48,297 nucleotides of DNA from Candidatus Micrarchaeota archaeon. Its GTDB lineage: Archaea > B1Sed10-29. Below the pieces are notes generated by a model, which had not been told where the DNA came from, searched no databases, and saw only the letters and a program-made list of their open reading frames with translations. The translations under genes and the position numbers were made by a program. Positions 1,965 through 46,454 of the stretch are shown piece after piece; position 1 is the stretch's first letter, and each line of letters begins with the position of its first letter. The stretch lies in contig CAZOFO010000004.1 in NCBI GenBank assembly GCA_964579265.1, positions 1-48,297 of the forward strand, given 5' to 3'.

Positions 1965-2012
1965 TGCAAAAAACATAACATTTAAATATGTTACTATCCA
2001 CAAGTGACAACA
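1965..2012 (+). promoter_or_regulatory. promoter block with a TAACAT-N6-ATGTTA palindrome around TTTAAATA, copy 1
   Basis: Palindrome at 1976-1993. The block is nearly identical to 4726-4772, and each copy lies upstream of a surface-protein gene. Confidence 0.6.
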
Positions 2013-2044: not shown

Positions 2045-4672
2045 ATGAATCTCGGAACAACTGAAAAAATAATCGGAATCACCCTCACCCTTCTCGCGTT
2101 AACCCTAGCAATGGGTCTATCAACAGGAACCACCGAAGACACATGGGAAGGATTCATAGAACCGGAAACAGGAGAAACATTCCAACCAGGAGAAATACCA
2201 GCACAAGTACAACCACACTCAGAAGCAGATGCTTACAGATGGGAAATAGTTGAAGACGAATTCTCATTCGGACAAGTAAACGGAAAGGAATACACCTTTG
2301 AAATAGAAGAAACAGGCACCCACACCCTAAAAACTACAGCTGAAAAACTAATATGCGTGGACGAACCTCACATATCACCTGAAGAATTAAAAGAAGAACA
2401 AAAAGATGATTTCTGTAGGAAAGAATTCATTCCAATAGAATCAGATACAGTTTCAATACAAGTAGGAGAAAGTAAAGAAGAAGTCTACTTCAAAGTAACC
2501 GAAGTAGAAACAGAAGACACATACCTAGGACAAGAAGCAGTAACAGAAGCATTAATTAAAAATACTGGAGAAACCAAAGGAACTCAAGATATAGAACTAT
2601 TAATACACGATTCTGAACCTGGAGAAGATCCATTGTTCAATCAAACCAAAGAAAAAGTAGAAATAAAAGCAGGAGAAAGCAAATTAATAGAATTCTCTGA
2701 AGAAGTACCAACAGAAGAAAAATACGTAGGAGAATACAAATCAACCGTATCATCCGAAGACAGCCAAGACACAGATCAATTCGAAATAAAAAACAATGAA
2801 AGCTCATGGAGAGGATTCATAGAGCCAAAACCAGGAGAAACATTCCAACCAGGAGAAATACCAGCACAAGTAGGAAAACACCCTAATCCAGAAGTAAATG
2901 CCTACCTATGGAGAACAGATGACAGAACTTATCCAGCAACAAGTCAAACAAACCACACTTTCAGAATAGAAGAACCAGGACAATACACCCTGGAATCAAT
3001 CGCAGTGAACATGGACATAGAACCACCAAAACCACCTGAACCACCATGGCCACCACAACCACCACAACCACCAGAGCCACCACACCCAAACATAACCACG
3101 GATTACCAAGAAGAATCCACCTCCGGAATAACCCCAATAGAAAAAGACACCGTAGAAATAGAAGTAGAAGAAGAGAAAGAGGAATACGAGCTAAAGATAA
3201 ACTCAACAAAAGGAGGGAACGTAACGGAACCAGGAGAAGGTAGATTCGAATATGAAAATAACACCGTAGTAAACATAACAGCAGGAAATAATCAAGGATA
3301 TGAATTCATGAATTGGACAGGGAACACAAGCACTATAGAAGATCCTGAATCACCAGAAACCAAGATAACAATAAGAGATAACTACACAATCACAGCAAAC
3401 TTCAAAGAAAAACCAGTAGATCAACCTTACTTCGAAATCAATATAACCTCACCAACAGACGGAACAGAATACGAAGAAGATGAAGAAATAAAAATAGAAC
3501 ACAGAGTTATAAACAAAGGAGGCGTCGAAGACACACAAAACATAACATTTGCAGTAGATGAAGATAATAACGTGGAAGAAAAAGAAAAATTCACCTTGAA
3601 ATCAAATGAAACCGAAGAAAACAGTTTCACTTGGACAGCAGATGAAGAAGGAACTTACGAACTAATTATCTCAAGCGAAGATCACACAGACACAGTTGAA
3701 ATAATAGTAGAAGAAGATACAGGAACAGGAGGAGGTGGCGGTGGCGGAACAGGCCCATCCCCAACCACCTACGACCTAACAATAAATACAGAAGGAGAAG
3801 GAGAAATCTCACCAGGAATCGGAACATACACATATACAGAAGGTACTGAAGTAGAAGTGGAGGCAACACCTGAAGAAGGATGGTACTTCCAAGAATGGAC
3901 AGGCGACCATACAAGCACGGAAGAAGAAATCACGGTGACAATGGACGAAGACAAGGAAATAACAGCACACTTCCAGGAAGAAATAGAAAACTACACCCTA
4001 ACAACCAACATAGATGGAGAAGGAGAAGTAGAGATAAATCCAGAACAAGACGAATACGAAGAAGGAACAGAAGTAACACTAACAGCAGAAGCACAAGAAG
4101 ACCATGAATTCACAGAATGGACAGGAGACCACACAGGCACGGAAGAAGAAATCACAATAACAATGAACGAAGACAAAGAAATAACAGCACACTTCACAGA
4201 AAAAGAACCTTACTTCGAGATAGTGAGAATAGAACACGATGAAGAAGTAACAGAAGGAGAAGAAACCACAATAGAGATTAGAATTGAAAATACCGGAGAA
4301 GCAACAGGTGCTCAAACAATAACACTTCATGAACAAGAAAACCCAGAGAACATGATAGACTCTAGAGAAATCACCTTAGAAGAAGGAGAAGAAACCACAG
4401 TAAACTTAAACTGGGAAACAGAACAATTAACCACAGGAGAACACACATTAACCGTTTCAAGCGGAGATCAAGAGATAAATATTGAAATAAGCATAGTAGA
4501 AGCAGAAGAACCTGAAGAACCAACTACAATAACAGGACTGGTAACAGGAGCATTCGCAAACCCAGTAGTAGGGATAATAGCTCTAATAGCATTAATAATA
4601 GCATCAATGGCTCTCTACAAAAGAGAAAATATAAAGAAAAGACTAAAAAACAATCTTGAAAAAGAAGAATAA
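2045..4672 (+). CDS. secreted modular surface protein (two variable-loop beta modules, CARDB-like domains, three InlB-B-like repeats, C-terminal TM)
   Basis: N-terminal signal peptide. Repeats of the type Y.LT....G.G......G.Y..GTEV...A....GW.F..WTGD......IT.TM..DKEITAHF. CARDB-like IENTGEATGAQTITL segments. Ends in ITGLVTGAFANP, a TM helix and a KR tail. Confidence 0.8.
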   Translation: MNLGTTEKIIGITLTLLALTLAMGLSTGTTEDTWEGFIEPETGETFQPGEIPAQVQPHSEADAYRWEIVEDEFSFGQVNGKEYTFEIEETGTHTLKTTAEKLICVDEPHISPEELKEEQKDDFCRKEFIPIESDTVSIQVGESKEEVYFKVTEVETEDTYLGQEAVTEALIKNTGETKGTQDIELLIHDSEPGEDPLFNQTKEKVEIKAGESKLIEFSEEVPTEEKYVGEYKSTVSSEDSQDTDQFEIKNNESSWRGFIEPKPGETFQPGEIPAQVGKHPNPEVNAYLWRTDDRTYPATSQTNHTFRIEEPGQYTLESIAVNMDIEPPKPPEPPWPPQPPQPPEPPHPNITTDYQEESTSGITPIEKDTVEIEVEEEKEEYELKINSTKGGNVTEPGEGRFEYENNTVVNITAGNNQGYEFMNWTGNTSTIEDPESPETKITIRDNYTITANFKEKPVDQPYFEINITSPTDGTEYEEDEEIKIEHRVINKGGVEDTQNITFAVDEDNNVEEKEKFTLKSNETEENSFTWTADEEGTYELIISSEDHTDTVEIIVEEDTGTGGGGGGGTGPSPTTYDLTINTEGEGEISPGIGTYTYTEGTEVEVEATPEEGWYFQEWTGDHTSTEEEITVTMDEDKEITAHFQEEIENYTLTTNIDGEGEVEINPEQDEYEEGTEVTLTAEAQEDHEFTEWTGDHTGTEEEITITMNEDKEITAHFTEKEPYFEIVRIEHDEEVTEGEETTIEIRIENTGEATGAQTITLHEQENPENMIDSREITLEEGEETTVNLNWETEQLTTGEHTLTVSSGDQEINIEISIVEAEEPEEPTTITGLVTGAFANPVVGIIALIALIIASMALYKRENIKKRLKNNLEKEE
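2169..2248 (+). repeat. 80-bp exact direct repeat, partner at 4954-5033
   Basis: caggagaaacattcc...gggaaata is identical in both surface-protein genes when compared by eye. Confidence 0.85.
2812..2872 (+). repeat. 61-bp exact direct repeat, partner at 4934-4994
   Basis: aggattcatagagccaaaacc...gcacaagta is identical in module 2 of gene 1 and the module of gene 2. Confidence 0.85.
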
Positions 4673-4725
4673 GAAAAAAACCATTATCTCTCTTACTAAA
4701 ACCAAAAGAAAAGTAGAGACAGTTA

Positions 4726-4772
4726 TGCAAAAACATAACATTTAAATATGTTACTATCCACAAATGATAACA
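4726..4772 (+). promoter_or_regulatory. promoter block with a TAACAT-N6-ATGTTA palindrome, copy 2
   Basis: Palindrome at 4736-4753. The block is nearly identical to 1965-2012. Confidence 0.6.
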
Positions 4773-4814
4773 CATATTGAATAGATAAAGATACGCTCAC
4801 CGAGAGGGAAAAAT

Positions 4815-7800
4815 ATGAATAGATTCAAAACAACGAAGAAAATAAGCATTATTGTAACAACACTCCTAGCGGTTATTCTAACGCTAGGAATCACACAAGG
4901 ATTCGCAGCAGAGACCACTACAAGCTCATGGGAAGGATTCATAGAGCCAAAACCAGGAGAAACATTCCAACCAGGAGAAATACCAGCACAAGTACAACCA
5001 CACTCAGAAGCAGATGCTTACAGATGGGAAATAATAAATAAACCTTCCTGGAATAGAAAAGGAACTTCTCACACTTATGAAATAAACGAGCCAGGACAAT
5101 ACGTACTAAAAGCCACAGCTGAAAAATTCTCTTTCCCACCTTACCCACCTTACCCACCCGGACCAATACCAAGAACAGAACAAAGTTCAACCCATTCCAG
5201 CAGCTTCGAACCAATAGCTACAGACACAGTTACCATTAAAGTTGAAGAAAAACCTAAAGAAATCAACACATGCAGCGAACTTCAAGACATAGGGAGATCA
5301 GGAGAGTACAAACTAGGAAACGACATAGACTGTAGCGGAATCAATAACTTCGATCCTATAACAGCCAACAGCAGAGACTCATTCTACTTAGACGGACAAG
5401 GCTATGCTATAAAGAATGTTAACATCGATAGACCCGACGAGAGCTACGTCGGAGTATTCGGACACCTGAAATACGACGCACTAGTAAAAAACGTTGGAGT
5501 AGAAGACGTAGATATAACAGGAAGAAACTACGTAGGCGGATTAGTAGGAAGACAATCCTACCAAGCAGAACTTAAAAACACTTACGCCACAGGAACAGTA
5601 GAAGGAAACAGAGACGTAGGAGGACTATCAGGACACAAATACGACGACATAACATGCAGCTGGGCAGACGCCAATGTAAGAGGAAACACAAACGTAGGAG
5701 CAGTAGTAGGAAATGACAGACAAAAGAAATCAGACTACACAAGAAAATCAACAACTCTTGACATAGGCACAACAGGACAAGGAGAAGTAGACATAAACCC
5801 AGAATACGACTACTACAGAAAAGGAAGCAAAACCACACTCACAGCACAACCTGAAAAAGGCTGGTACTTCCAAGGATGGAGAGGAGACCACAGCTGTACG
5901 GATAAAATAGTAACAATAACAATGGATAAAGATAAAGAGATAACAGCACAATTCACAGAAGAAAAAGAAGACCCATACTTCAAAACTAACATAATATCAC
6001 CAAAAGAAGGAGATTACTTCTACGAAGGAGAAACAGTACAAGTCTACCACTCAGTAAAAAACACTGGAGAGATAAAGGACACGCAGAAGATCCAGTTCAG
6101 AATCAACAGCCAATTCGAGGATAAAAAATACTTAACAATAAAACCAGGAGAAACAAAGTACCGTACTTTCACCTGGACTGCAGAAAAAGGATACCACGAA
6201 CTCAAAGTAAAGAGCGAAGACCACCAAGACACAGTAGGAATAAACGTAAAAGAAGAACCCCCAGAATACAAAGAGTTAAAGATCAATAAAGAAGGAAACG
6301 GAACCACACAACCAAAACCAGGAACACACATATACGAAAAAGGAGAAAAAGTAGAAGTAGAGGCAACTCCCGAAGAAGGATGGTACTTCGAAGAATGGAG
6401 CGGAGACCATAGTTGCGGGGACAAAAAAATAATCATAGAGATGAATGAAGACAAAGAAATAACAGCAAACTTCAAAGAAGAACCAACTGAATACAGAGAA
6501 CTTACAATAAACACAGAAGGAAACGGAACCACACAACCAAAACCAGGAACACACATATACGAAAAAGATACCGAAGTGGAAATAGAAGCAACAGCAGATG
6601 AAAACTGGTACTTCGAAGAATGGACAGGTGACAAAGAATCAAACGAGACAAAGATCACACTAAACATGACAGAAGATAAAGAAATAACAGCGAACTTCAA
6701 AGAAGAAGAACCAAAAATGGAAGCAGAACTAATAAAACCATTGGACGGAGCAACAGACGTATCCAAAGAAGCGGAACTAGAAGTAAGAATAACACATTCA
6801 GAAGAAAAAGAGACGAACATCTCATTCATAGACTCAAAAGAAAATAAAGAACTAGGAACCTACAAAAACGTGGAAAACGGAACAAGAGTACAACACACAT
6901 GGAAAGATCTGGATGGAAACACCACATATGAATGGTACGTACAGATGGAATCAGGAAACGAAACCGAAACCAGCGAAACATGGTCATTTACCACAGAGCA
7001 CATACCTGCAGACCAAATATCAGTAAGTGCAGGAGGAGACCGAGTAACCACTGTTAACACACCAATCGAACTAAGAGGAACAGCATCAAGCTACAAATCC
7101 AGAATAACAAAATACAAATGGGACTTCAACGGAGACGGAGAATGGGACTACAAATCCAACACCTCCGGAATCACAACAACAACCTACGACGAACCAGGAG
7201 AATACAAAGCAAGACTACAAGTAATAGACGCAAACAACAACAAAAACCACGATACCGCTAGAATAACCATAAGAGAAGAAATAAGACTAGTTCCAGATGA
7301 AGAAACAATAGTAGAACTAGAAAGAAAAACAAAAAACCAAGTCAGAATCACACCAACCTACATATACGACCCAGAGGGAAATACAACAAGAGTAGAATAC
7401 GAATTCAGGAACACGAAAAGAGAGAGCAGACACCTACAGATAAAAGCTGAAATACCAACAAAAGTAGCAGCCACCACGGAAGACCTCTTAATCCTACCCG
7501 GACCGGATGGAGAAGAGGTAAAAAACCTACCCTACTGGAACGTATCCCTAGCCCCAGAAGAAACAACAACAATAGCTATAGAGAAACAAGGATTCCTACA
7601 ACAAAGACACATAGAAGACATAGAGATAGATATAAGAGAAAGAGAACCAAGAGAACTAGAACCAGAAGAAGAAGTAGAAGAACCAGTAACAATAGGAGGA
7701 CTAGTAACAGGAGCATTCGCAAACCCAGCAATAGGAGCAGCAATACTACTAGCACTGATAATAATATCTCTAGCATACTACAAAAGAGAAGAAATAAAAG

Positions 7801-7829
7801 AAAGACTAGAAGAGAACCTTGAAAAATAA
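4815..7829 (+). CDS. secreted modular surface protein (variable-loop module, short GLUG-motif region, three InlB-B-like repeats, CARDB, FN3-like, PKD, C-terminal TM)
   Basis: Signal peptide. GLUG-type repeats (GRNYVGGLVG, GNRDVGGLSG, GNTNVGAVVG). PKD motif YKWDFNGDGEWDY...TYDEPGEYKARLQV. Ends in GGLVTGAFANP, a TM helix and a KR tail. Confidence 0.8.
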   Translation: MNRFKTTKKISIIVTTLLAVILTLGITQGFAAETTTSSWEGFIEPKPGETFQPGEIPAQVQPHSEADAYRWEIINKPSWNRKGTSHTYEINEPGQYVLKATAEKFSFPPYPPYPPGPIPRTEQSSTHSSSFEPIATDTVTIKVEEKPKEINTCSELQDIGRSGEYKLGNDIDCSGINNFDPITANSRDSFYLDGQGYAIKNVNIDRPDESYVGVFGHLKYDALVKNVGVEDVDITGRNYVGGLVGRQSYQAELKNTYATGTVEGNRDVGGLSGHKYDDITCSWADANVRGNTNVGAVVGNDRQKKSDYTRKSTTLDIGTTGQGEVDINPEYDYYRKGSKTTLTAQPEKGWYFQGWRGDHSCTDKIVTITMDKDKEITAQFTEEKEDPYFKTNIISPKEGDYFYEGETVQVYHSVKNTGEIKDTQKIQFRINSQFEDKKYLTIKPGETKYRTFTWTAEKGYHELKVKSEDHQDTVGINVKEEPPEYKELKINKEGNGTTQPKPGTHIYEKGEKVEVEATPEEGWYFEEWSGDHSCGDKKIIIEMNEDKEITANFKEEPTEYRELTINTEGNGTTQPKPGTHIYEKDTEVEIEATADENWYFEEWTGDKESNETKITLNMTEDKEITANFKEEEPKMEAELIKPLDGATDVSKEAELEVRITHSEEKETNISFIDSKENKELGTYKNVENGTRVQHTWKDLDGNTTYEWYVQMESGNETETSETWSFTTEHIPADQISVSAGGDRVTTVNTPIELRGTASSYKSRITKYKWDFNGDGEWDYKSNTSGITTTTYDEPGEYKARLQVIDANNNKNHDTARITIREEIRLVPDEETIVELERKTKNQVRITPTYIYDPEGNTTRVEYEFRNTKRESRHLQIKAEIPTKVAATTEDLLILPGPDGEEVKNLPYWNVSLAPEETTTIAIEKQGFLQQRHIEDIEIDIREREPRELEPEEEVEEPVTIGGLVTGAFANPAIGAAILLALIIISLAYYKREEIKERLEENLEK

Positions 7830-7837
7830 AAAACCAC

Positions 7838-7971: not shown

Positions 7972-8499
7972 ATGCCTTTACTAACAGAAGAAAAAATCAC
8001 AATAACCGACCAGGAACTGAAAAAAGAACTAAAAGAAAAAGGATACGGAGAAGAAGAAGAAAGAAAAAAAGAAAACGGAAAACTAGTCCTATCACCAGAA
8101 GAAACACTTTACTTAAAAGAAAAAAGAAAAAACTTCACAGTAAGAGACCCAGAGAACAAAGAACTCGGTGAAGAAGAACTGAAAAAACAATTCACCCGGA
8201 GAAACGAAGAATTCCCAAGAAAATACACAGTATACAAAGACCTAAGAGACAGAGGATTCTGCGTTAAAACAGGATTCAAATTCGGATCCCACTTCAGAGT
8301 ATATAAAAGAGGAGAAAAACCAGGAGAAGGACATGCAAAATGGCTAGTGCACGCAGTACCAGAAGAATACGAATGCAGTTTCCCGGAACTAAGCAGATCC
8401 ATAAGACTAGCTCAAAATGTCAAGAAAACAATGGTATACGCCGTAGTAGATAAAGAACAGGATATAACTTACTATAAAATGAAAAGAATAACACCATAG
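7972..8499 (+). CDS. endA: tRNA splicing endonuclease (about 175 aa, single catalytic unit, alpha4-type size)
   Basis: VYKDLRDRGFCVKTGFKFGSHFRVY, GHAKWLV and R.AQNVKKTMVYAVVD carry the Tyr/His/Lys catalytic triad. Confidence 0.93.
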   Translation: MPLLTEEKITITDQELKKELKEKGYGEEEERKKENGKLVLSPEETLYLKEKRKNFTVRDPENKELGEEELKKQFTRRNEEFPRKYTVYKDLRDRGFCVKTGFKFGSHFRVYKRGEKPGEGHAKWLVHAVPEEYECSFPELSRSIRLAQNVKKTMVYAVVDKEQDITYYKMKRITP

Positions 8500-11861: not shown

Positions 11862-13166
11862 TTAGATATAGTTCTCCATATCATGAGATTCATTTAATTC
11901 AGGGATTATTACTTCGGCATCTAGGTTTTCTCTCATCCAGTTTCCTAGTGCTTCCGTGTTTTCTTCATCCCCATGTATTATGAATGTTACTTCTGGTTCT
12001 ATCTTCTCTGCAAATTCTCTGAGTTTGTGCTTGTCGCTGTGTGCGCTGAAATCGTAGAACTCTATTTCAAAATTGGAGAGATCCATATCGTAGTTGTCAT
12101 GGGTGAATCTACCTGTTTCAAGTAGTTTTCTTCCTGGTGTGTCTTCAGGTTGATATCCTGTGAGGTATATTCCGTGTTCTCTTTCGTCTCCTTTTCTTTC
12201 TTTCTTCTTCAGTTCTGTTAGGTAGTGTATTATTGGTCCTCCTCCAAGCATCCCTGCGGTTGTTACTATTGCTCCGGGTTCTTCCAGAGCTTCGAATCTT
12301 TCTCCGTGGTCTTTTATCCATTTGGATCTTTTCATCCCTTCGTAGAAATCATCAAATCTGTTTATGTATTCCGGGTAATTCAGCATTATGTCAGCCGCGT
12401 CAGTTGACATTCCGTCCAGCCATATCTTGCCGTTGAAACCGTATTGTTCCAGTACGGTGATCACTTCCTGTGCTCTCCCCACTGCGAAGGCAGGTATGAG
12501 GGCTATACCTCCATTTTTCACTGTTTCCTGTACTGATTCGTAGAAATCTTTTTCTATCTGCTCTCTAGGAGGATGTTCTTCATCTCCATAAGTAGCTTCA
12601 GTTATCAGTATATCTATATCGTCCTTTTCTTCGCTGTAATCGTAAGAGGGTTCGTGTAGAGCGGTTTCGTTTAGTTTGAAGTCTCCGGTGTAGAGTATGT
12701 TTCCTTCGAGTGTATCCATTCTTATTGTAGATGCTCCGAGTATGTGTCCTGCATTTTCGAACTTGATGCTGGTTTCTTTACCTATTTCTTTTTTCCTGGA
12801 GTACGGGACTTTCACGGTGTTTCTTAGCATTCTCTTGAGGTGTTGTTTTGTGAATATCTTTTCGAGTCCCTCCATCTCCCTGATCTTTATCGAGTCTTTT
12901 ATCAATAGATCTATGACGGGCAAGGTAGGGGGGGTCATGTAGGTCTTGGGTCCGGTGACCTTGTATAGTAGGGGTATCGCTCCCGAGTGATCAAGGTGAG
13001 CGTGGCTTAGAACCACTTCATCTGCAAATCCTTGAACAGGTAAAGGTAATCCTGGGTTCTTATCCACTCTTATACCATAATCTAGGAGAGTTCTTTTCTT
13101 ATCTTGTTCTACTAATACAGCTGATCTTCCAACTTCTTTTGTTCCGCCTAAAAAATCTATCTTCAT
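11862..13166 (-). CDS. metallo-beta-lactamase beta-CASP ribonuclease (aCPSF2-like)
   Basis: FLGGTKEVGRS, LSHAHLDHSG, AGHILG, YTGDF, TEATYG, PAFAVGRAQE, FSAHSD and IHGD motifs. Confidence 0.88.
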   Translation of the reverse strand: MKIDFLGGTKEVGRSAVLVEQDKKRTLLDYGIRVDKNPGLPLPVQGFADEVVLSHAHLDHSGAIPLLYKVTGPKTYMTPPTLPVIDLLIKDSIKIREMEGLEKIFTKQHLKRMLRNTVKVPYSRKKEIGKETSIKFENAGHILGASTIRMDTLEGNILYTGDFKLNETALHEPSYDYSEEKDDIDILITEATYGDEEHPPREQIEKDFYESVQETVKNGGIALIPAFAVGRAQEVITVLEQYGFNGKIWLDGMSTDAADIMLNYPEYINRFDDFYEGMKRSKWIKDHGERFEALEEPGAIVTTAGMLGGGPIIHYLTELKKKERKGDEREHGIYLTGYQPEDTPGRKLLETGRFTHDNYDMDLSNFEIEFYDFSAHSDKHKLREFAEKIEPEVTFIIHGDEENTEALGNWMRENLDAEVIIPELNESHDMENYI

Positions 13167-38135: not shown

Positions 38136-38260
38136 TGCTCCGACCGGGATTTGAACCCGGGTCTCGGGCTTTCTCCAATCCTGAGAATTTTCAAATCTAT
38201 AAAGATATTTTACTCAAGATTTCGAAAGGCCCGAATCCTTGGCCACTAGACTATCGGAGC
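38136..38260 (-). tRNA. tRNA-Glu(TTC) with a 52-nt intron at 37/38 (38171-38222)
   Basis: GCTCCGA/TCGGAGC acceptor stem and CGGGC-CTTTCG^A-GCCCG arm. BHB central helix CUUU/GGAG and a 9-bp outer helix AAUCUUGAG/CUCAGGAUU. Confidence 0.95.
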
Positions 38261-39299: not shown

Positions 39300-39403
39300 A
39301 ACACTCTAGAACTTACCCCCTTGCGCCTTCTTTCTCATTTTTTTATATCTCTTGAATTAGAAATACCTGTCTCTAGGATAAGTAAAAAGAAAAAGAAAGA
39401 TTT

Positions 39404-39863
39404 AAATAGAGGTTTCAAATATTTTCACTATCTTAGTTGCAGTGGAATGTTATATCTGGGAAGTCACCGTCAACAACAGTGTACTGCGTACCGGATGTAA
39501 AGTGGTCTTCATCTGTTGATACTAGATCTACGTATGCTTCTTCACCAGCTTCTAATCCTAAATCGAATGATATGTTTCCTCTGTGTTCTCCTTCTGAGTA
39601 TACTGTTACCATTCTATCGGACCCTATATTTACTCCACCAGTATTTACTATTCTTGCACTGGCATTACTTGGGGTTTCAGCTTCGTTTAGGTTGCATTCT
39701 CCTACGGTGAATGCTGTTTGTGCTGTTTCTGCTCCTGGAGGTTTGTCTGCTAGTCCGGCTGCCCAGTACCATACACCTACTGCTGCTATCACTGCAATTG
39801 CTATCAGTAGTACAACTGCTATAACTGGGGATATACCTTTCTTCATATATATTCACCTCCTTT
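39404..39863. repeat. 460-bp exact direct repeat, copy 1 (period 622)
   Basis: Identical by eye to 40026-40485. The ORF-track shadow ORFs are also identical in both copies. Confidence 0.95.
39433..39846 (-). CDS. archaeal type IV pilin (class III signal peptide), copy 1
   Basis: MKKG^ISPVIAVVLLIAIAVIAAVGVWYW prepilin motif, GGAGGTG SD, and a C-terminal Cys pair. Confidence 0.88.
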   Translation of the reverse strand: MKKGISPVIAVVLLIAIAVIAAVGVWYWAAGLADKPPGAETAQTAFTVGECNLNEAETPSNASARIVNTGGVNIGSDRMVTVYSEGEHRGNISFDLGLEAGEEAYVDLVSTDEDHFTSGTQYTVVDGDFPDITFHCN

Positions 39864-39929: not shown

Positions 39930-40025
39930 ATATGTTTAGGTAAGCGATCTGGGAGATAGAAACATATAATGATTATAGAAATCCCTAGTGAAAGATAAAG
40001 AGAAACAAAGAAAAAGAAAATTAAA

Positions 40026-40485
40026 AAATAGAGGTTTCAAATATTTTCACTATCTTAGTTGCAGTGGAATGTTATATCTGGGAAGTCACCGTCAACAACA
40101 GTGTACTGCGTACCGGATGTAAAGTGGTCTTCATCTGTTGATACTAGATCTACGTATGCTTCTTCACCAGCTTCTAATCCTAAATCGAATGATATGTTTC
40201 CTCTGTGTTCTCCTTCTGAGTATACTGTTACCATTCTATCGGACCCTATATTTACTCCACCAGTATTTACTATTCTTGCACTGGCATTACTTGGGGTTTC
40301 AGCTTCGTTTAGGTTGCATTCTCCTACGGTGAATGCTGTTTGTGCTGTTTCTGCTCCTGGAGGTTTGTCTGCTAGTCCGGCTGCCCAGTACCATACACCT
40401 ACTGCTGCTATCACTGCAATTGCTATCAGTAGTACAACTGCTATAACTGGGGATATACCTTTCTTCATATATATTCACCTCCTTT
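40026..40485. repeat. 460-bp exact direct repeat, copy 2
   Basis: Identical by eye to 39404-39863. Confidence 0.95.
40055..40468 (-). CDS. archaeal type IV pilin (class III signal peptide), copy 2
   Basis: Identical to copy 1. Confidence 0.88.
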   Translation of the reverse strand: MKKGISPVIAVVLLIAIAVIAAVGVWYWAAGLADKPPGAETAQTAFTVGECNLNEAETPSNASARIVNTGGVNIGSDRMVTVYSEGEHRGNISFDLGLEAGEEAYVDLVSTDEDHFTSGTQYTVVDGDFPDITFHCN

Positions 40486-40541: not shown

Positions 40542-42458
40542 TTATGTTTTTTTCTTTAAGGATGATTTTTCTTTTTTCTTTTCTTTTTCATCTTCATTTT
40601 TGACTTTTTTAACGATTTTACCTAAAAAACCTGTATTTTTTGATTGATCTTTGTCTTTATCTTTTTCCTTTTCCGTATCTTTCGATTTTTCTTTACCCTT
40701 TACTTCTTCTTTATCTTTCTTCTCTTTTTCGGGTTTTTTATCTTTTTTATCTTTTTTCTTCTCTATCTTCTTTATCTTCTTTTCTTTTCCTGTTAGTTTT
40801 CCTTTTATACCTGTTCCTATCAGTTTTATGTCTTTTCTATCTTTTATTTCTTCTTTGATGTATTTTATGAGTCTTTTTTCCGGTATTTGAAGTCTTTTTT
40901 CCAGTGTCTTTATCTCCATTTCTTTTCCTGGTCTCATTATATCTAGGTATTTCTTTGCTCTTTCTTTTCTTCTTTGTTTTATTTCTTCAGTATGTTCTTT
41001 TATTTCTTCTGCTTTTTTTCTGGTTTTTTTGTGTTCTTCTTCGTCTTTTTTTAGTTTTGAGGTTATGCCTCCTATTTTTTCCTCCATTTTCTTCATTTTT
41101 TCCGATTTTTTCTCTTCTTCGGTTTCTTCGTGCATTTGGCTTTTGTGTATTTTCATTCCTTTTTTGGAGCTGAATTCTTTTCCGCATACTGGACAGGTGT
41201 TTCCTTCAGGTTCTTCCTGTTCTTCGGTCTTTTCTCTGATCTTTTTCATTTTTTCTTTTGCTTTTTCAAGTTTTTCTTTTTTATCTTTAGACATCTTTTT
41301 TGCTTTGGGAGGTTTAATTTCAGATAGTTTTTGTTTTAGTTCTTCTTTTTCTTTTTTAGATGGTTCTTCTTCTTTTGCTTCTTCCACTGCTTTTTCTGCT
41401 TTCTCTATTTCTTGTTTAGTTTTCTTTATTTCTTTTCCTGAGATGTGTTTGGTTTCTATTCCTTGACTTATTTTTCCTAGAAGGGTTTCTATGTTGGATA
41501 GGTCTTTTCCCATTGCTTTGAAGTACTGTCTGGTTTGTTTTCCACTTGCTTTTTCCACTTCGTCCAGTTGTTTGTCTATTTCATCTATTTTTTCATATAG
41601 TTTATCTATTGATGCTTCCATTTCTTTGCTTGGTCCTGATCTGTCTATACCTTCTATTCTTTGTTTTATCTTGTTTAGGGAGTTCTTTATATTTTCCATT
41701 TCTTCTTTTGTTTCTTTTCTTTTTTCCTTTTCTCTTTCCCTTGCTTTTCTTATCTGTTTGGTTAAGTCTTCTATTTTTTGCTCGAGCTGTGTTTCTCCTT
41801 CTACAGTGGTTTCTTCAATGGTTTCTCTGATCTCTTGTATTTGTTCTTTTAGTTCTTTTCCTTTTTCTTCCATTCCACTGTATTTTTCTTCTTGTTTTTT
41901 CACGAGTTCGTCTGGTAGTTCCTTTAGTTGTTCCTGTAGTGATTCTATATCTTTTTGAAGTACTTCAGCTTTAGGTGCGTGTTCCTCTGGTTTTTCTTGA
42001 GCTTCATCTATTTTTTCAGTCATTTTTTCTATTTCTTCATCTAGTGATTCTATTTCTTTTTCAAAGGAACTTATTTTTTCTTCTTTTGGTATATGGTGTA
42101 GTGCTTTGTTTATTTCGTCTATTCTTTCTTTGAGTTCTTCTCCTGTTGTTTCTTCTTTTTTGGATTTTAGTTTTTGTACTTCGTTTAGAAGTTTTGATTG
42201 TGATTCCGCTATTGTTCTTATGATTTCGTTAGGTGTTTGATCTTCTTCTGTTTCTTCGGCTGCTTCCTGTATTACTTCGGTGAGTCTTTCTATTTTATTA
42301 TTTATCTCTTTGTTCTTTTTCAGGTTTCTTTGTACGAGTTTTTCGAGTTTTTCTTCTTTTCCTTCATCCATTCCTCTACTTTTTTCTTTTTCCAGTTCCT
42401 GTATTTGTGATTTTAGTTTTTTCTGTGTTTCTTTGAGTTCTTCTGCTTTTTCAGCCAT
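40542..42458 (-). CDS. long coiled-coil protein with one C2H2 zinc finger and a K-rich tail
   Basis: Heptad-rich K/E sequence containing CPVCGKEFSSKKGMKIHKSQMH. No Walker motifs. Confidence 0.7.
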   Translation of the reverse strand: MAEKAEELKETQKKLKSQIQELEKEKSRGMDEGKEEKLEKLVQRNLKKNKEINNKIERLTEVIQEAAEETEEDQTPNEIIRTIAESQSKLLNEVQKLKSKKEETTGEELKERIDEINKALHHIPKEEKISSFEKEIESLDEEIEKMTEKIDEAQEKPEEHAPKAEVLQKDIESLQEQLKELPDELVKKQEEKYSGMEEKGKELKEQIQEIRETIEETTVEGETQLEQKIEDLTKQIRKAREREKEKRKETKEEMENIKNSLNKIKQRIEGIDRSGPSKEMEASIDKLYEKIDEIDKQLDEVEKASGKQTRQYFKAMGKDLSNIETLLGKISQGIETKHISGKEIKKTKQEIEKAEKAVEEAKEEEPSKKEKEELKQKLSEIKPPKAKKMSKDKKEKLEKAKEKMKKIREKTEEQEEPEGNTCPVCGKEFSSKKGMKIHKSQMHEETEEEKKSEKMKKMEEKIGGITSKLKKDEEEHKKTRKKAEEIKEHTEEIKQRRKERAKKYLDIMRPGKEMEIKTLEKRLQIPEKRLIKYIKEEIKDRKDIKLIGTGIKGKLTGKEKKIKKIEKKKDKKDKKPEKEKKDKEEVKGKEKSKDTEKEKDKDKDQSKNTGFLGKIVKKVKNEDEKEKKKEKSSLKKKT

Positions 42459-42546: not shown

Positions 42547-43320
42547 TTATTCTTCTTCGTCTTCTCCAGCTATATATTTTATCCATATTATCCATAGCAG
42601 TAGTGCCCATATTATTAGTAGTGTTCTCCATAGGAAGTCGTGTACCAGGTCGAGGAACTGTATTCCTCTTGCCCATCCTGCATATATTGTTGTTGAGAGC
42701 CTTACTATATTCATTAGATGAACTAGAGGGATTGATAGCACTATTCCAAGGAATTTATCTTTTTTATTGGCATCTGGATAGGCTATTATCAGTGAGACTA
42801 TGGCGAACATTCCTATCCATCCAACGCATTCAGGTATTATGTCCACCTGGAATGGTTCATCCGTTCCTTGTATGTCTATGAGCGCGGGTGAGGTGTATAC
42901 TATATGTCCCTGTGCTCTCAGGTTTTTAGTGTATTCGTCCACTATATTTTCATCTTCTGGGTGTAGTGAAGTTGCTAGAAATTGTCTTGATCCTTCTATA
43001 TCTCTTTCTTCCATCCCTATTCTTGTTAGTTTTTCACTGGCATCTTCAAGGACTGGAGAATCTTCCGGTATTATTATAGAGTGTTCGTAGAACTGAGTAT
43101 CGACACTTGAGGCTTGTAGTACTGCATTGGTGTGCATTGCTACCTGTCTTCTTGGAAAACGCATTTCTAGGTTAAGAGAAGATATGAATGACATTAGTAT
43201 TGCGGCTAGAGCTAATACTGATGCGAATTTAGCTATCTTTATTATTTTTTCTTTTTCTTGGATTTTCTCAGTGAATTCAGATAATCTAGATTCTTTTATT
43301 TTTTCAGAAAGTTTCTTCAT
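42547..43320 (-). CDS. archaeosortase/exosortase family transpeptidase
   Basis: IIPECVG (Cys), MNIVRL (Arg) and LVHDFLW (His) catalytic triad set within TM helices. Confidence 0.85.
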   Translation of the reverse strand: MKKLSEKIKESRLSEFTEKIQEKEKIIKIAKFASVLALAAILMSFISSLNLEMRFPRRQVAMHTNAVLQASSVDTQFYEHSIIIPEDSPVLEDASEKLTRIGMEERDIEGSRQFLATSLHPEDENIVDEYTKNLRAQGHIVYTSPALIDIQGTDEPFQVDIIPECVGWIGMFAIVSLIIAYPDANKKDKFLGIVLSIPLVHLMNIVRLSTTIYAGWARGIQFLDLVHDFLWRTLLIIWALLLWIIWIKYIAGEDEEE

Positions 43321-46333: not shown

Positions 46334-46454
46334 CGGATCCGAGGGGATTCGAACCCCTGACCTACGGCTTTCTTCCATCTCCGTCATCGCTTTGCACGTG
46401 AGCGGGAGAGATTGTTAGAAGGCCGTTGCCCTATCCGAACTAGGCTACGGATCC
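46334..46454 (-). tRNA. tRNA-Arg(TCT) with a 46-nt intron at 37/38 (46370-46415)
   Basis: GGATCCG/CGGATCC acceptor stem, ACGGC-CTTCTA^A-GCCGT arm, and a perfect BHB central helix CUUC/GAAG. Confidence 0.95.

What the first reader, a model, noticed from the sequence alone, without database searches (positions are those of the whole stretch)
2144..5243. Constant-framework, variable-loop module in three copies (antibody-like design) at surface-protein N-termini
Seen: three modules of about 105-120 aa (2144-2464, 2807-3166, 4929-5243) share W.GFIEP..GETFQPGEIPAQV, then AY.W, then (H/Y)T(F/Y).I.E.G..(T/V)L, and end in PI..DTV.I.V. Between the last two strands each carries an unrelated insert. Copy 1 has a Cys-bracketed loop (LICVDEPHISPEELKEEQKDDFCRKEF). 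Copies 2 and 3 have Pro-rich loops (PPKPPEPPWPPQPPQPPEPPHP... and FPPYPPYPPGPIPR...). Inference: an Ig/PKD-like sandwich presents a CDR3-like hypervariable loop at the membrane-distal tip, possibly for host or partner recognition. I know of no named family for it.
Basis: partly seen in the sequence, partly recalled or inferred. Interest (0 to 1): 0.72.

Follow-up and report, generated by a model that had tools for sequence, protein, structure and literature searches.

The report
PKD-like head domains with fixed hairpins
Two neighbouring surface-protein genes of an uncultured soda-lake archaeon carry three copies of a divergent PKD-type Ig-like domain; each copy has its own long hairpin insert, but these inserts are conserved rather than antibody-like hypervariable, so this is an unusual member of an ordinary kind.

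Summary
Three homologous modules of 105-120 aa sit at 2144-2464, 2807-3166 and 4929-5243, and there are no others in the window. They lie in two tandem genes that encode C-terminally anchored surface proteins.

The fold inference also holds. The module is a divergent PKD-like beta-sandwich (hhalign 97% against PKD domains; AlphaFold pLDDT 82). In the modelled copy the insert lies inside the domain, as a long F-G hairpin.

The antibody/CDR3 reading does not hold.
- Between orthologues, the Cys-bracketed hairpin is the best-conserved segment of the domain: 77% aa identity against 49% for the whole protein.
- Across eight soda-lake metagenomes the three inserts show three SNPs, two of them synonymous, and no indels.
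- No ORF of 200 aa or more in the window matches a reverse transcriptase.
- The variable part is the middle of the "framework" (strands C-F).
- The framework's near-identical first 35 codons (96-97% nt identity) look like a gene-conversion tract.
- The Pro-rich inserts are 9-nt (PPx) tandem-repeat expansions.

Most likely these are adhesin-like proteins whose tip domains carry fixed, paralogue-specific hairpins. One metagenome seems to hold an in-frame recombinant between modules 1 and 2. The module is lineage-restricted, with only two protein clusters among 1.84 billion representatives. Interest is modest.

The parts
1969..2012 (+). Conserved upstream island of ORF A. It holds the palindrome AACAT-TTAAAT-ATGTT over a TATA-like box and is probably a shared promoter or operator.
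   Evidence: It is 95% identical to 4729-4772, while the flanking 5' leader and signal-peptide DNA have diverged. The 35-nt core occurs exactly twice in the window against 0 expected. The promoter function is inferred.
2045..4672 (+). ORF A, 875 aa. Order of parts: signal peptide, module 1, CARDB-like domain, module 2, InlB B-repeat, Big_7/CARDB, Gly-rich linker, two B-repeats, CARDB, C-terminal TM anchor.
   Evidence: ORF. Pfam hits: Flg_new_2 2e-44, CARDB 7e-10, Big_7 6e-9. It is collinear with the orthologue P0003 at 49% identity.
2045..2128 (+). Predicted Sec signal peptide of ORF A (MNLGTTEK + hydrophobic core + STG).
   Evidence: Read from the sequence. No predictor was run.
2144..2464 (+). 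Module 1, a PKD-like domain at aa 34-140 of ORF A.
2144..2248 (+). The first 35 codons of module 1. This is a near-identity island shared with modules 3 and 2 and is a putative gene-conversion tract.
   Evidence: 101/105 nt are identical to 4929-5033. The next 93 aligned nt are only 58% identical.
2348..2428 (+). Insert 1, the Cys-bracketed F-G hairpin LICVDEPHISPEELKEEQKDDFCRKEF.
   Evidence: In the AF2 model the F and G strands extend into a hairpin with a helical tip. C104 and C124 are the only cysteines in ORF A. The insert is 77% conserved in P0003.
2807..3166 (+). Module 2, an internal PKD-like domain at aa 255-374 of ORF A. P0003 has an InlB B-repeat at this position.
3011..3133 (+). 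Insert 2, 41 aa, Pro-rich (PPKPPEPPWPPQPPQPPEPPHP...). The core 3021-3088 is a 9-nt tandem repeat of 7.6 units.
   Evidence: Unitigs are identical in seven runs.
4535..4618 (+). C-terminal hydrophobic anchor of ORF A (GLVTGAFANPVVGIIALIALIIASMALY), followed by a basic tail.
   Evidence: Read from the sequence. The 176 nt at the 3' end are 75% identical to the 3' end of ORF B (family D10).
4729..4772 (+). Conserved upstream island of ORF B, with the same palindrome and TATA-like box as 1969-2012.
4815..7829 (+). ORF B, 1004 aa. Order of parts: signal peptide, module 3, GLUG region, B-repeat, Big_7/CARDB, two B-repeats, Big_5, PKD, C-terminal TM anchor.
   Evidence: The exact protein is found in two ENA soda-lake assemblies.
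4929..5243 (+). Module 3, a PKD-like domain at aa 39-143 of ORF B.
5127..5210 (+). Insert 3, Pro-rich (FSFPPYPPYPPGPIPRTEQSSTHSSSFE). The stretch 5131-5158 is a 9-nt tandem repeat of 3.1 units.
   Evidence: The only population variant seen is the synonymous 5156 A>G.
7698..7781 (+). C-terminal hydrophobic anchor of ORF B.
   Evidence: Read from the sequence.

Best explanation
ORF A and ORF B are tandem paralogous genes with a shared promoter element. They encode adhesin-like surface proteins of an uncultured soda-lake archaeon. Each protein has a signal peptide, a stalk of Ig-like domains (CARDB, Big_7, InlB B-repeats, PKD, GLUG) and a C-terminal membrane anchor.

The repeated module is a lineage-specific, divergent PKD-like beta-sandwich. 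Its F-G turn has grown into a long hairpin. By Ig-fold topology the F-G pole lies opposite the domain's C-terminus, so in modules 1 and 3 the hairpin would be the outermost tip of the protein.

Each paralogue has its own fixed hairpin:
- one braced by a Cys pair;
- two made by expansion of a 9-nt (PPx) repeat.

The hairpins are under purifying selection, not diversification. They most likely act as paralogue-specific contact elements for a partner surface or ligand.

The near-identity of the first 35 codons among copies is concerted evolution by gene conversion. The same island appears to support in-frame recombination between modules.

Shown: homology of the modules, PKD-like fold, intradomain position of insert 1, conservation of the inserts, repeat origin of inserts 2 and 3, and the mosaic DNA pattern. 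Inferred: surface exposure, tip position, the disulfide, a binding function, and the recombinant in run X7.
For: Homology and fold: for the three modules. hhalign against PKD domains gives 97.2% probability. The HMM hits beyond the family are Pfam PKD-repeat proteins. AF2 gives pLDDT 82 with a long F/G hairpin. Foldseek finds FN3-like and PKD domains.

Conservation of inserts: copy 1 against P0003 has the loop at 20/26 aa, the first 35 aa at 24/35, the middle at 12/33 and strand G at 7/11. Fisher's test of loop against middle gives p = 0.002. Whole-protein identity is 49%. Across eight runs the loop variants are only 5156 A>G (synonymous), 2431 T>A (synonymous) and 2423 G>A (E127K), with no indels.

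Repeat origin of the Pro-rich inserts.

Concerted evolution: the island is 96-97% identical between copies, within paralogues that are otherwise 55-65% identical.

Domain shuffling: P0003 has a B-repeat where module 2 sits, and the ORF B orthologue in L003 has no module.

No reverse transcriptase among the ORFs of 200 aa or more, and housekeeping archaeal neighbours.

The middle of the framework is the mosaic part in the sister lineage. A 121-nt stretch (L003 231-351) is replaced in a co-occurring haplotype.
Against: - No functional data exist, and no RNA run holding the locus could be listed.
- Only module 1 was modelled, and its MSA is shallow: 4 true family members plus 21 remote PKD segments. 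The hairpin has pLDDT 72-82 only.
- The single-sequence model of aa 1-402 failed, with pLDDT 36.
- The intradomain status of inserts 2 and 3 rests on homology of the flanking strands, not on a model.
- Orthologue conservation could be tested for insert 1 only. No orthologue of modules 2 or 3 is known.
- Logan unitigs drop rare variants, so low-frequency loop variants cannot be excluded.
- Foldseek E-values (2e-3 and weaker) are not significant in the strict sense.
Confidence: 0.6

Rival explanations
1. One reading: the module is a constant scaffold that presents a CDR3-like hypervariable loop, diversified within populations for host or partner recognition.
For: The three paralogous copies do carry unrelated inserts at the topological equivalent of CDR3, the F-G loop. 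L003 and L005 differ at 4 of 26 loop residues, while the 67 residues before the loop are identical.
Against: - The loop is the most conserved segment between orthologues.
- There are three SNPs, two synonymous, and no indels in 291 nt of insert across eight metagenomes.
- The L003/L005 differences continue at about 10%, including synonymous sites, beyond the module. That is a recombination breakpoint, not loop-targeted mutation.
- No reverse transcriptase and no template/variable repeat pair were found.
- The strongly divergent part is strands C-F.
Confidence: 0.05
2. The inserts have no specific binding role. The PPx inserts are neutral replication-slippage expansions or rigid polyproline spacers tolerated in a surface loop, and the Cys-bracketed hairpin is a stabilising decoration. 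The domain is just one more stalk element.
For: Inserts 2 and 3 are imperfect 9-nt tandem repeats. Module 2 is internal and interchangeable with a B-repeat in the orthologue. The ORF B orthologue does without the module altogether.
Against: Insert 1 is more conserved than the rest of the protein. The repeats show no length polymorphism in any of the runs that cover them: seven runs for insert 2 and eight for insert 3. Both points argue for constraint rather than drift.
Confidence: 0.25
3. Cassette exchange: the near-identical 5' island of the module serves as a recombination handle. In-frame recombination between modules changes which hairpin sits at the tip of ORF A, giving population-level surface variation.
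For: The islands of modules 1 and 2 are direct repeats 663 nt (221 codons) apart.

In run X7:
- the ORF A 5' unitig (1974-2198, depth 9.5) and the remainder of module 2 (2843-3861, depth 8.1) are present;
- nothing maps to 2250-2800, even at 80% likeness;
- the shared 2180-2248 unitig runs unbranched into the module 3 continuation;
- the depth of the shared 41-mer fits two copies rather than three.

Mosaic breakpoints are also seen in the sister lineage.
Against: - The junction cannot be seen with 31-mers.
- The predicted 654-aa hybrid protein is not in the protein collection.
- Only one run of eight shows the pattern.
- Recombination between repeats happens without being a selected mechanism.
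Confidence: 0.15

Closest known systems
PKD domain (Pfam PF00801 / PF18911, E-set beta-sandwich) of prokaryotic surface proteins and collagenases
   Same: Same strand order, and the core positions are conserved: P.PGE at strand A, Y.W at strand C, and H.F...PG.Y.L at strands E and F. hhalign gives 97% probability. Solved PKD domains are among the structural neighbours: AAVR 7wjx_R, ColH 4u6t, ColG 2y72 and polycystin-1 1b4r. The setting is the same: tandem Ig-like arrays in secreted or anchored proteins.
   Different: The module stays below Pfam thresholds. It lacks the WDFGDG motif beyond the W. The tight F-G turn is replaced by inserts of 27-41 residues. The N-terminal W.GFIEP..GETFQPGEIPAQV signature is found in only two protein clusters among 1.84 billion representatives.
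F-G loop binders on Ig-like scaffolds: antibody CDR3 and FN3 monobodies (from general knowledge)
   Same: The insert occupies the F-G connection, the position of CDR3 in V domains and of the main diversified loop in FN3 binders. The modelled stalk-like hairpin with a braced tip loosely recalls long CDR H3 architectures.
   Different: There is no diversification. The loops are conserved between orthologues and across populations. No somatic or retroelement mechanism was found. V-set domains rank below FN3-like and PKD domains in the fold search.
Targets of diversity-generating retroelements in DPANN archaea (C-type lectin-fold variable proteins; PMC5006420, PMC7443923)
   Same: These are surface-exposed proteins of small symbiotic archaea, proposed to mediate host contact. 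This is the known route to real hypervariability in such organisms.
   Different: The fold differs (C-type lectin against PKD-like). No ORF of 200 aa or more in the window matches a reverse transcriptase, there is no accessory gene, and there is no template/variable repeat pair. No adenine-directed variation is seen in the metagenomes.
Large multidomain surface proteins of symbiotic archaea, such as the SPEARE proteins of Ca. Nanohaloarchaeum antarcticus (as cited in PMC9765267 and PMC7443923) and the SNP-rich hypothetical surface proteins of Nanoarchaeota (PMC6142677)
   Same: Long, membrane-anchored proteins rich in Ig-like domains, in reduced archaea from saline habitats. They show mosaic evolution and elevated variation relative to housekeeping genes.
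   Different: No protease or nuclease domains are present. The proteins are much smaller. Assignment of this organism to DPANN was not tested here.

Membership tests
PKD domain (Pfam PF00801 / PF18911) | Sequence match to the family HMM above the gathering score | tested here: not met
   No PKD hit falls on the modules in the whole-protein scans. When each module was scanned alone, one of four reached E = 0.025 (PKD) and 0.041 (PKD_4), below threshold.
PKD domain (Pfam PF00801 / PF18911) | Remote (profile-profile) homology to bona fide PKD domains | tested here: met
   hhalign of A2 against A3 gives 97.2% probability and E = 3e-11 over module columns 1-67. A3 holds ten domains, taken from proteins with Pfam PKD hits and from the window's own PKD domain. 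Caveat: the members of A3 were picked from hits of the module's own HMM.
PKD domain (Pfam PF00801 / PF18911) | Seven-stranded Ig-like beta-sandwich resembling solved PKD domains | tested here: inconclusive
   The AF2 model has pLDDT 82 with strands A to G. Foldseek finds PKD domains at target-normalised TM 0.52-0.59, but with E values of only 3e-3 to 4e-2, and FN3-like domains rank equally.
PKD domain (Pfam PF00801 / PF18911) | Conserved WDFGDG motif after strand C | tested here: not met
   Only Y-x-W is kept (AYRWEI, AYLWRT). No FGDG follows.
DGR variable protein | A reverse transcriptase gene near the target gene | tested here: not met
   No RVT family appears among the Pfam hits of the two surface-protein genes and 20 further ORFs of 200 aa or more; the remaining one, at 11862-13166, carries Lactamase_B/Beta-Casp families in the precomputed table for the near-identical locus L001. 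Smaller ORFs and the rest of the genome were not screened.
DGR variable protein | A template repeat / variable repeat pair differing at adenines | tested here: not met
   The direct repeats that touch the modules are the paralogous module segments themselves (families D8, D13, D11). None covers an insert.
Antigen-receptor-like hypervariable loop (functional class, not a family) | Loop variability exceeding framework variability among close relatives | tested here: not met
   Between orthologues the loop is 77% identical and the middle of the framework 36%. Populations show three SNPs, two synonymous, in eight runs. Rare variants are not testable with unitigs.
Archaeosortase substrate (PGF-CTERM-type sorting signal) | A C-terminal tripartite signal with a conserved motif, plus a cognate archaeosortase | not tested
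   Both proteins end in TGLVTGAFANP + TM helix + basic tail. An exosortase-family ORF lies at 42547-43320. No signal HMM was run.

The most novel reading that the evidence does not exclude
The three hairpins are alternative contact tips for different partners. On this reading the near-identical 5' island of the module, kept homogeneous by gene conversion, lets the population exchange or delete modules in frame, which changes the hairpin at the distal end of the adhesin. That would be a recombination-based surface-variation system in a small archaeon, built on a PKD-like scaffold.
Probability: 0.15. Interest if true: 0.6.

Novelty: new variant of a known kind. Interest (0 to 1): 0.3.

Why it matters
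If the hairpins are contact elements, these two genes are candidate determinants of how an uncultured soda-lake archaeon attaches to a partner or substrate. The fixed, paralogue-specific tips would then be a simple handle for pull-down experiments.

The value of this check is mostly corrective. An apparent "antibody-like" design turns out to be a PKD-like domain with three ordinary features: an expanded F-G hairpin, concerted evolution of its first third, and ordinary mosaic evolution of a surface protein. It also shows that paralogue-only comparisons can mislead. Gene conversion can make a "framework" look constant, and old divergence can make a "loop" look hypervariable.

Tried and rejected
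- The word-indexed protein search, with the module alignment and with aa 1-402 of ORF A, found nothing. The proteins are nevertheless in the collection.
- A PDB sequence search with the module profile gave only a chance hit at E = 0.83.
- Two scans of GTDB species genomes for the module found no relative. The organism therefore could not be named. Archaeal identity rests on the neighbouring genes: tRNA-intron endonuclease, diphthine synthase, NMD3, and HMG-CoA synthase/thiolase.
- Single-sequence AlphaFold of aa 1-402 failed, with pLDDT 36.
- The DGR idea was rejected.
- Assembly artefact as the cause of the identity island was rejected. Independent ENA assemblies and Logan unitigs reproduce the copy-specific differences.
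- No RNA-seq run holding the locus could be listed.
- An exact look-up of the predicted 654-aa recombinant protein gave no hit.
- The viral fold library gave only generic Ig-like, Hoc and FN3 neighbours.
Full report
LOCUS. The finding lies in two tandem + strand genes: ORF A (2045-4672, 875 aa) and ORF B (4815-7829, 1004 aa). Both begin with a Sec-type signal peptide and end in a hydrophobic helix followed by a basic tail; this is read from the sequence. Between the ends Pfam finds InlB B-repeats (Flg_new_2, E = 2e-44 and 1e-39), CARDB and Big_7. ORF B also has GLUG, Big_5 and a canonical PKD domain. Nothing in Pfam covers the three modules.

The neighbours are housekeeping genes of archaeal type: tRNA-intron endonuclease, diphthine synthase, NMD3, a beta-CASP nuclease, ADP-forming acetyl-CoA synthetase, aminoacyl-tRNA synthetases, and HMG-CoA synthase/thiolase. 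Two of the three tRNA hits span 121 and 125 nt, longer than a standard tRNA and possibly intron-bearing. The window is an NCBI contig. The same proteins occur in two ENA soda-lake assemblies and in eight or more soda-lake sequencing runs. The phylum could not be determined, because both scans of GTDB genomes for relatives of the module found nothing.

The three modules align with 39 invariant columns. The most distant pair gives BLASTP E = 2e-20. An HMM finds only these three sites in the six-frame translation. The inserts lie at 2348-2428, 3011-3133 and 5127-5210.

Two corrections are needed.
- Module 2 is internal to ORF A, not N-terminal.
- The framework is not uniformly constant.

WHAT THE MODULE IS. 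An exhaustive HMM search of 1.84 billion representative proteins returned only two proteins with the whole module. One is ORF B itself. The other is P0003, an 836-aa orthologue of ORF A from a Kulunda soda-lake sediment metagenome. The weaker hits match profile positions of about 20-70 and are multi-repeat proteins. Five of the eight that I scanned carry Pfam PKD domains.

Three lines of evidence place the module in the PKD-like beta-sandwich class.
- hhalign of the four-module profile against ten such PKD domains gives 97.2% probability and E = 3e-11 over strands A-F. The alignment stops exactly where the insert begins.
- AlphaFold with a 25-row alignment gives pLDDT 82 and pTM 0.70. It shows short strands A to E, then a long F strand (residues 62-77), a turn with a short helix (88-91), and a long G strand (95-111).
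- Foldseek finds FN3-like and PKD domains, among them AAVR, ColH, ColG and polycystin-1. Target-normalised TM is 0.52-0.59, at weak E-values.

The module is therefore a divergent PKD-like sandwich. At least in copy 1 the insert is an intradomain F-G hairpin, not a linker. C104 and C124 bracket that hairpin and are the only cysteines in ORF A, which suggests a disulfide; this is inferred. For copies 2 and 3 the same topology is inferred from the conserved flanks TAEK/IAVN and PI..DTV.I.V.

THE INSERTS ARE NOT HYPERVARIABLE. Four lines of evidence bear on this.

- Orthologues. Window copy 1 was compared with P0003 segment by segment:

| Segment | Identical aa |
|---|---|
| First 35 aa | 24/35 |
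| Strands C-F | 12/33 |
| Insert | 20/26 |
| Strand G | 7/11 |
| Whole protein | 49% |

  The insert is the best-conserved piece (Fisher's test against strands C-F, p = 0.002).

- Populations. In eight runs from three studies, unitigs over the inserts are identical to the window except for three SNPs. These are 5156 A>G (Pro, synonymous), 2431 T>A (Ile, synonymous) and 2423 G>A (E127K). There is no length change in the PPx repeats. By contrast the B-repeat region, 3880-4240, is full of variants, and the three assemblies differ there.

- Mechanism. No ORF of 200 aa or more in the window matches a reverse-transcriptase family, and no repeat pairs with an insert.

- The sister lineage. L003 and L005 are identical for 363 nt and then differ at 21 of 209 nt, including many third-codon positions beyond the module. 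That is a recombination breakpoint, not loop-targeted change. A third co-occurring haplotype replaces 121 nt of strands C-F and keeps the L005-type loop.

The fast-evolving, mosaic part is therefore the middle of the "framework".

WHY THE FRAMEWORK LOOKS CONSTANT. The first 105 nt are 96% identical between modules 1 and 3. The first 73 nt are 97% identical between modules 2 and 3. The signal-peptide DNA upstream and the DNA downstream are only about 55-65% identical. Between species the same 35 residues differ at 11 positions. The within-genome identity therefore reflects concerted evolution, not extreme constraint.

A second identity island lies upstream of both genes, at 1969-2012 and 4729-4772. 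It contains a palindrome over a TATA-like box and probably acts as a shared promoter or operator.

ORIGIN OF THE PRO-RICH INSERTS. Both are 9-nt tandem repeats encoding PPx, with 7.6 units in module 2 and 3.1 units in module 3. Their difference in length is a repeat expansion. They are probably related to each other, sharing 9 of 28 aligned residues.

DOMAIN SHUFFLING AND A LIKELY RECOMBINANT. P0003 has a B-repeat where module 2 sits. The ORF B orthologue in L003 has no module and starts with an extra GLUG region.

Run X7 shows the following pattern.
- The ORF A 5' unitig and the remainder of module 2 are present at equal depth (9.5 and 8.1).
- Nothing maps to 2250-2800.
- The shared unitig 2180-2248 continues unbranched into module 3 sequence.
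- The depth of the shared 41-mer fits two copies.

The simplest reading is an in-frame 663-nt deletion between the islands of modules 1 and 2, which would put the Pro-rich hairpin at the tip. This is inferred from the unitig graph. The predicted hybrid protein is not in the protein collection.

MECHANISM PROPOSED. These are adhesin-like, C-terminally anchored proteins. Their distal PKD-like head presents a fixed, paralogue-specific F-G hairpin as a contact element. In Ig-like folds the F-G pole lies opposite the domain's C-terminus (general knowledge). In modules 1 and 3 the hairpin therefore points away from the stalk. Function, exposure and binding are inferences. I put this at about 0.6.

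The rivals are:
- inert spacer or slippage products (0.25);
- recombination-based cassette exchange (0.15);

COMPARISON WITH WHAT IS KNOWN. The module works like, and is distantly related to, PKD domains. It fails the Pfam thresholds and lacks the WDFGDG motif, so I file it as a new variant of that kind rather than as a member of the Pfam family. True hypervariable surface proteins of small archaea use DGRs and a C-type lectin fold (PMC5006420, PMC7443923), and none of that is present here. Surface proteins of symbiotic archaea are known to be SNP-rich and fast-evolving (PMC6142677). The mosaic pattern seen here fits that general picture.

VERDICT. The fold and the loop position are supported. 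The antibody analogy is not supported. The module is lineage-restricted and mildly interesting, chiefly for its recombination behaviour.

Noticed in passing
window 1969-2012 and 4729-4772: A 44-nt island, 95% identical, lies upstream of both surface-protein genes. It holds the palindrome AACAT-TTAAAT-ATGTT over a TATA-like box, amid otherwise diverged leader DNA. It is probably a shared promoter or operator.
   Followed up: partly
window 2250-2800 (run X7): One soda-lake metagenome has both flanks of this stretch at equal depth but no unitig for the stretch itself. This fits an in-frame 663-nt deletion between the identity islands of modules 1 and 2.
   Followed up: partly
window 2142-2250 (run X7, 351-nt unitig, depth 4): A further module variant is present at low depth. 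It is about 82% identical over the first 35 codons, has a different signal-peptide end, and has a different continuation (...NEPSWEMGGK...). The family is therefore larger in the metagenomes than in the protein collections.
   Followed up: no
window 3880-4240: The InlB B-repeat region of ORF A has 5-40 times the local depth and many variants and joints in the metagenomes. It is also the only place where the window and the two ENA assemblies differ. The cause is either repeat-driven misassembly or real recombination.
   Followed up: partly
window 39433-39846 and 40055-40468 (- strand): Two tandem genes encode the same 137-aa protein, which starts MKKGISPVIAVVLLIAIAVIA, an N-terminus like those of archaeal type IV pilins. 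A 300-nt stretch inside the two genes (39385-39684 and 40007-40306) is 97% identical.
   Followed up: no
window 42547-43320 (- strand); 4494-4669 and 7657-7832: An exosortase/archaeosortase-family ORF lies in the same window (Pfam Exosortase_EpsH, E = 2e-6). Both surface proteins share a conserved C-terminal TGLVTGAFANP + TM + basic tail. This may be a sorting signal and its processing enzyme.
   Followed up: no
L003 2647-5340: The ORF B orthologue of the sister lineage lacks the module and instead starts with an additional GLUG-type region. The N-terminal head domain is exchangeable between lineages.
   Followed up: partly
L003 231-351 (runs X13, X14, X1): A co-occurring haplotype replaces exactly 121 nt, covering strands C-F of the module, with sequence less than 85% identical. 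The flanks stay about 92% identical. The replacement sequence could not be retrieved.
   Followed up: partly
window 40542-42458 (- strand): A 638-aa ORF, very rich in Glu and Lys and coiled-coil-like, contains a single C2H2-like motif (CPVCGKEFSSKKGMKIHKSQMH). It has no Pfam match.
   Followed up: no
window 38136-38260 and 46334-46454 (- strand): Rfam tRNA hits span 125 and 121 nt, longer than a standard tRNA. They probably carry introns, which would fit the tRNA-intron endonuclease gene at 7972-8499.
   Followed up: no
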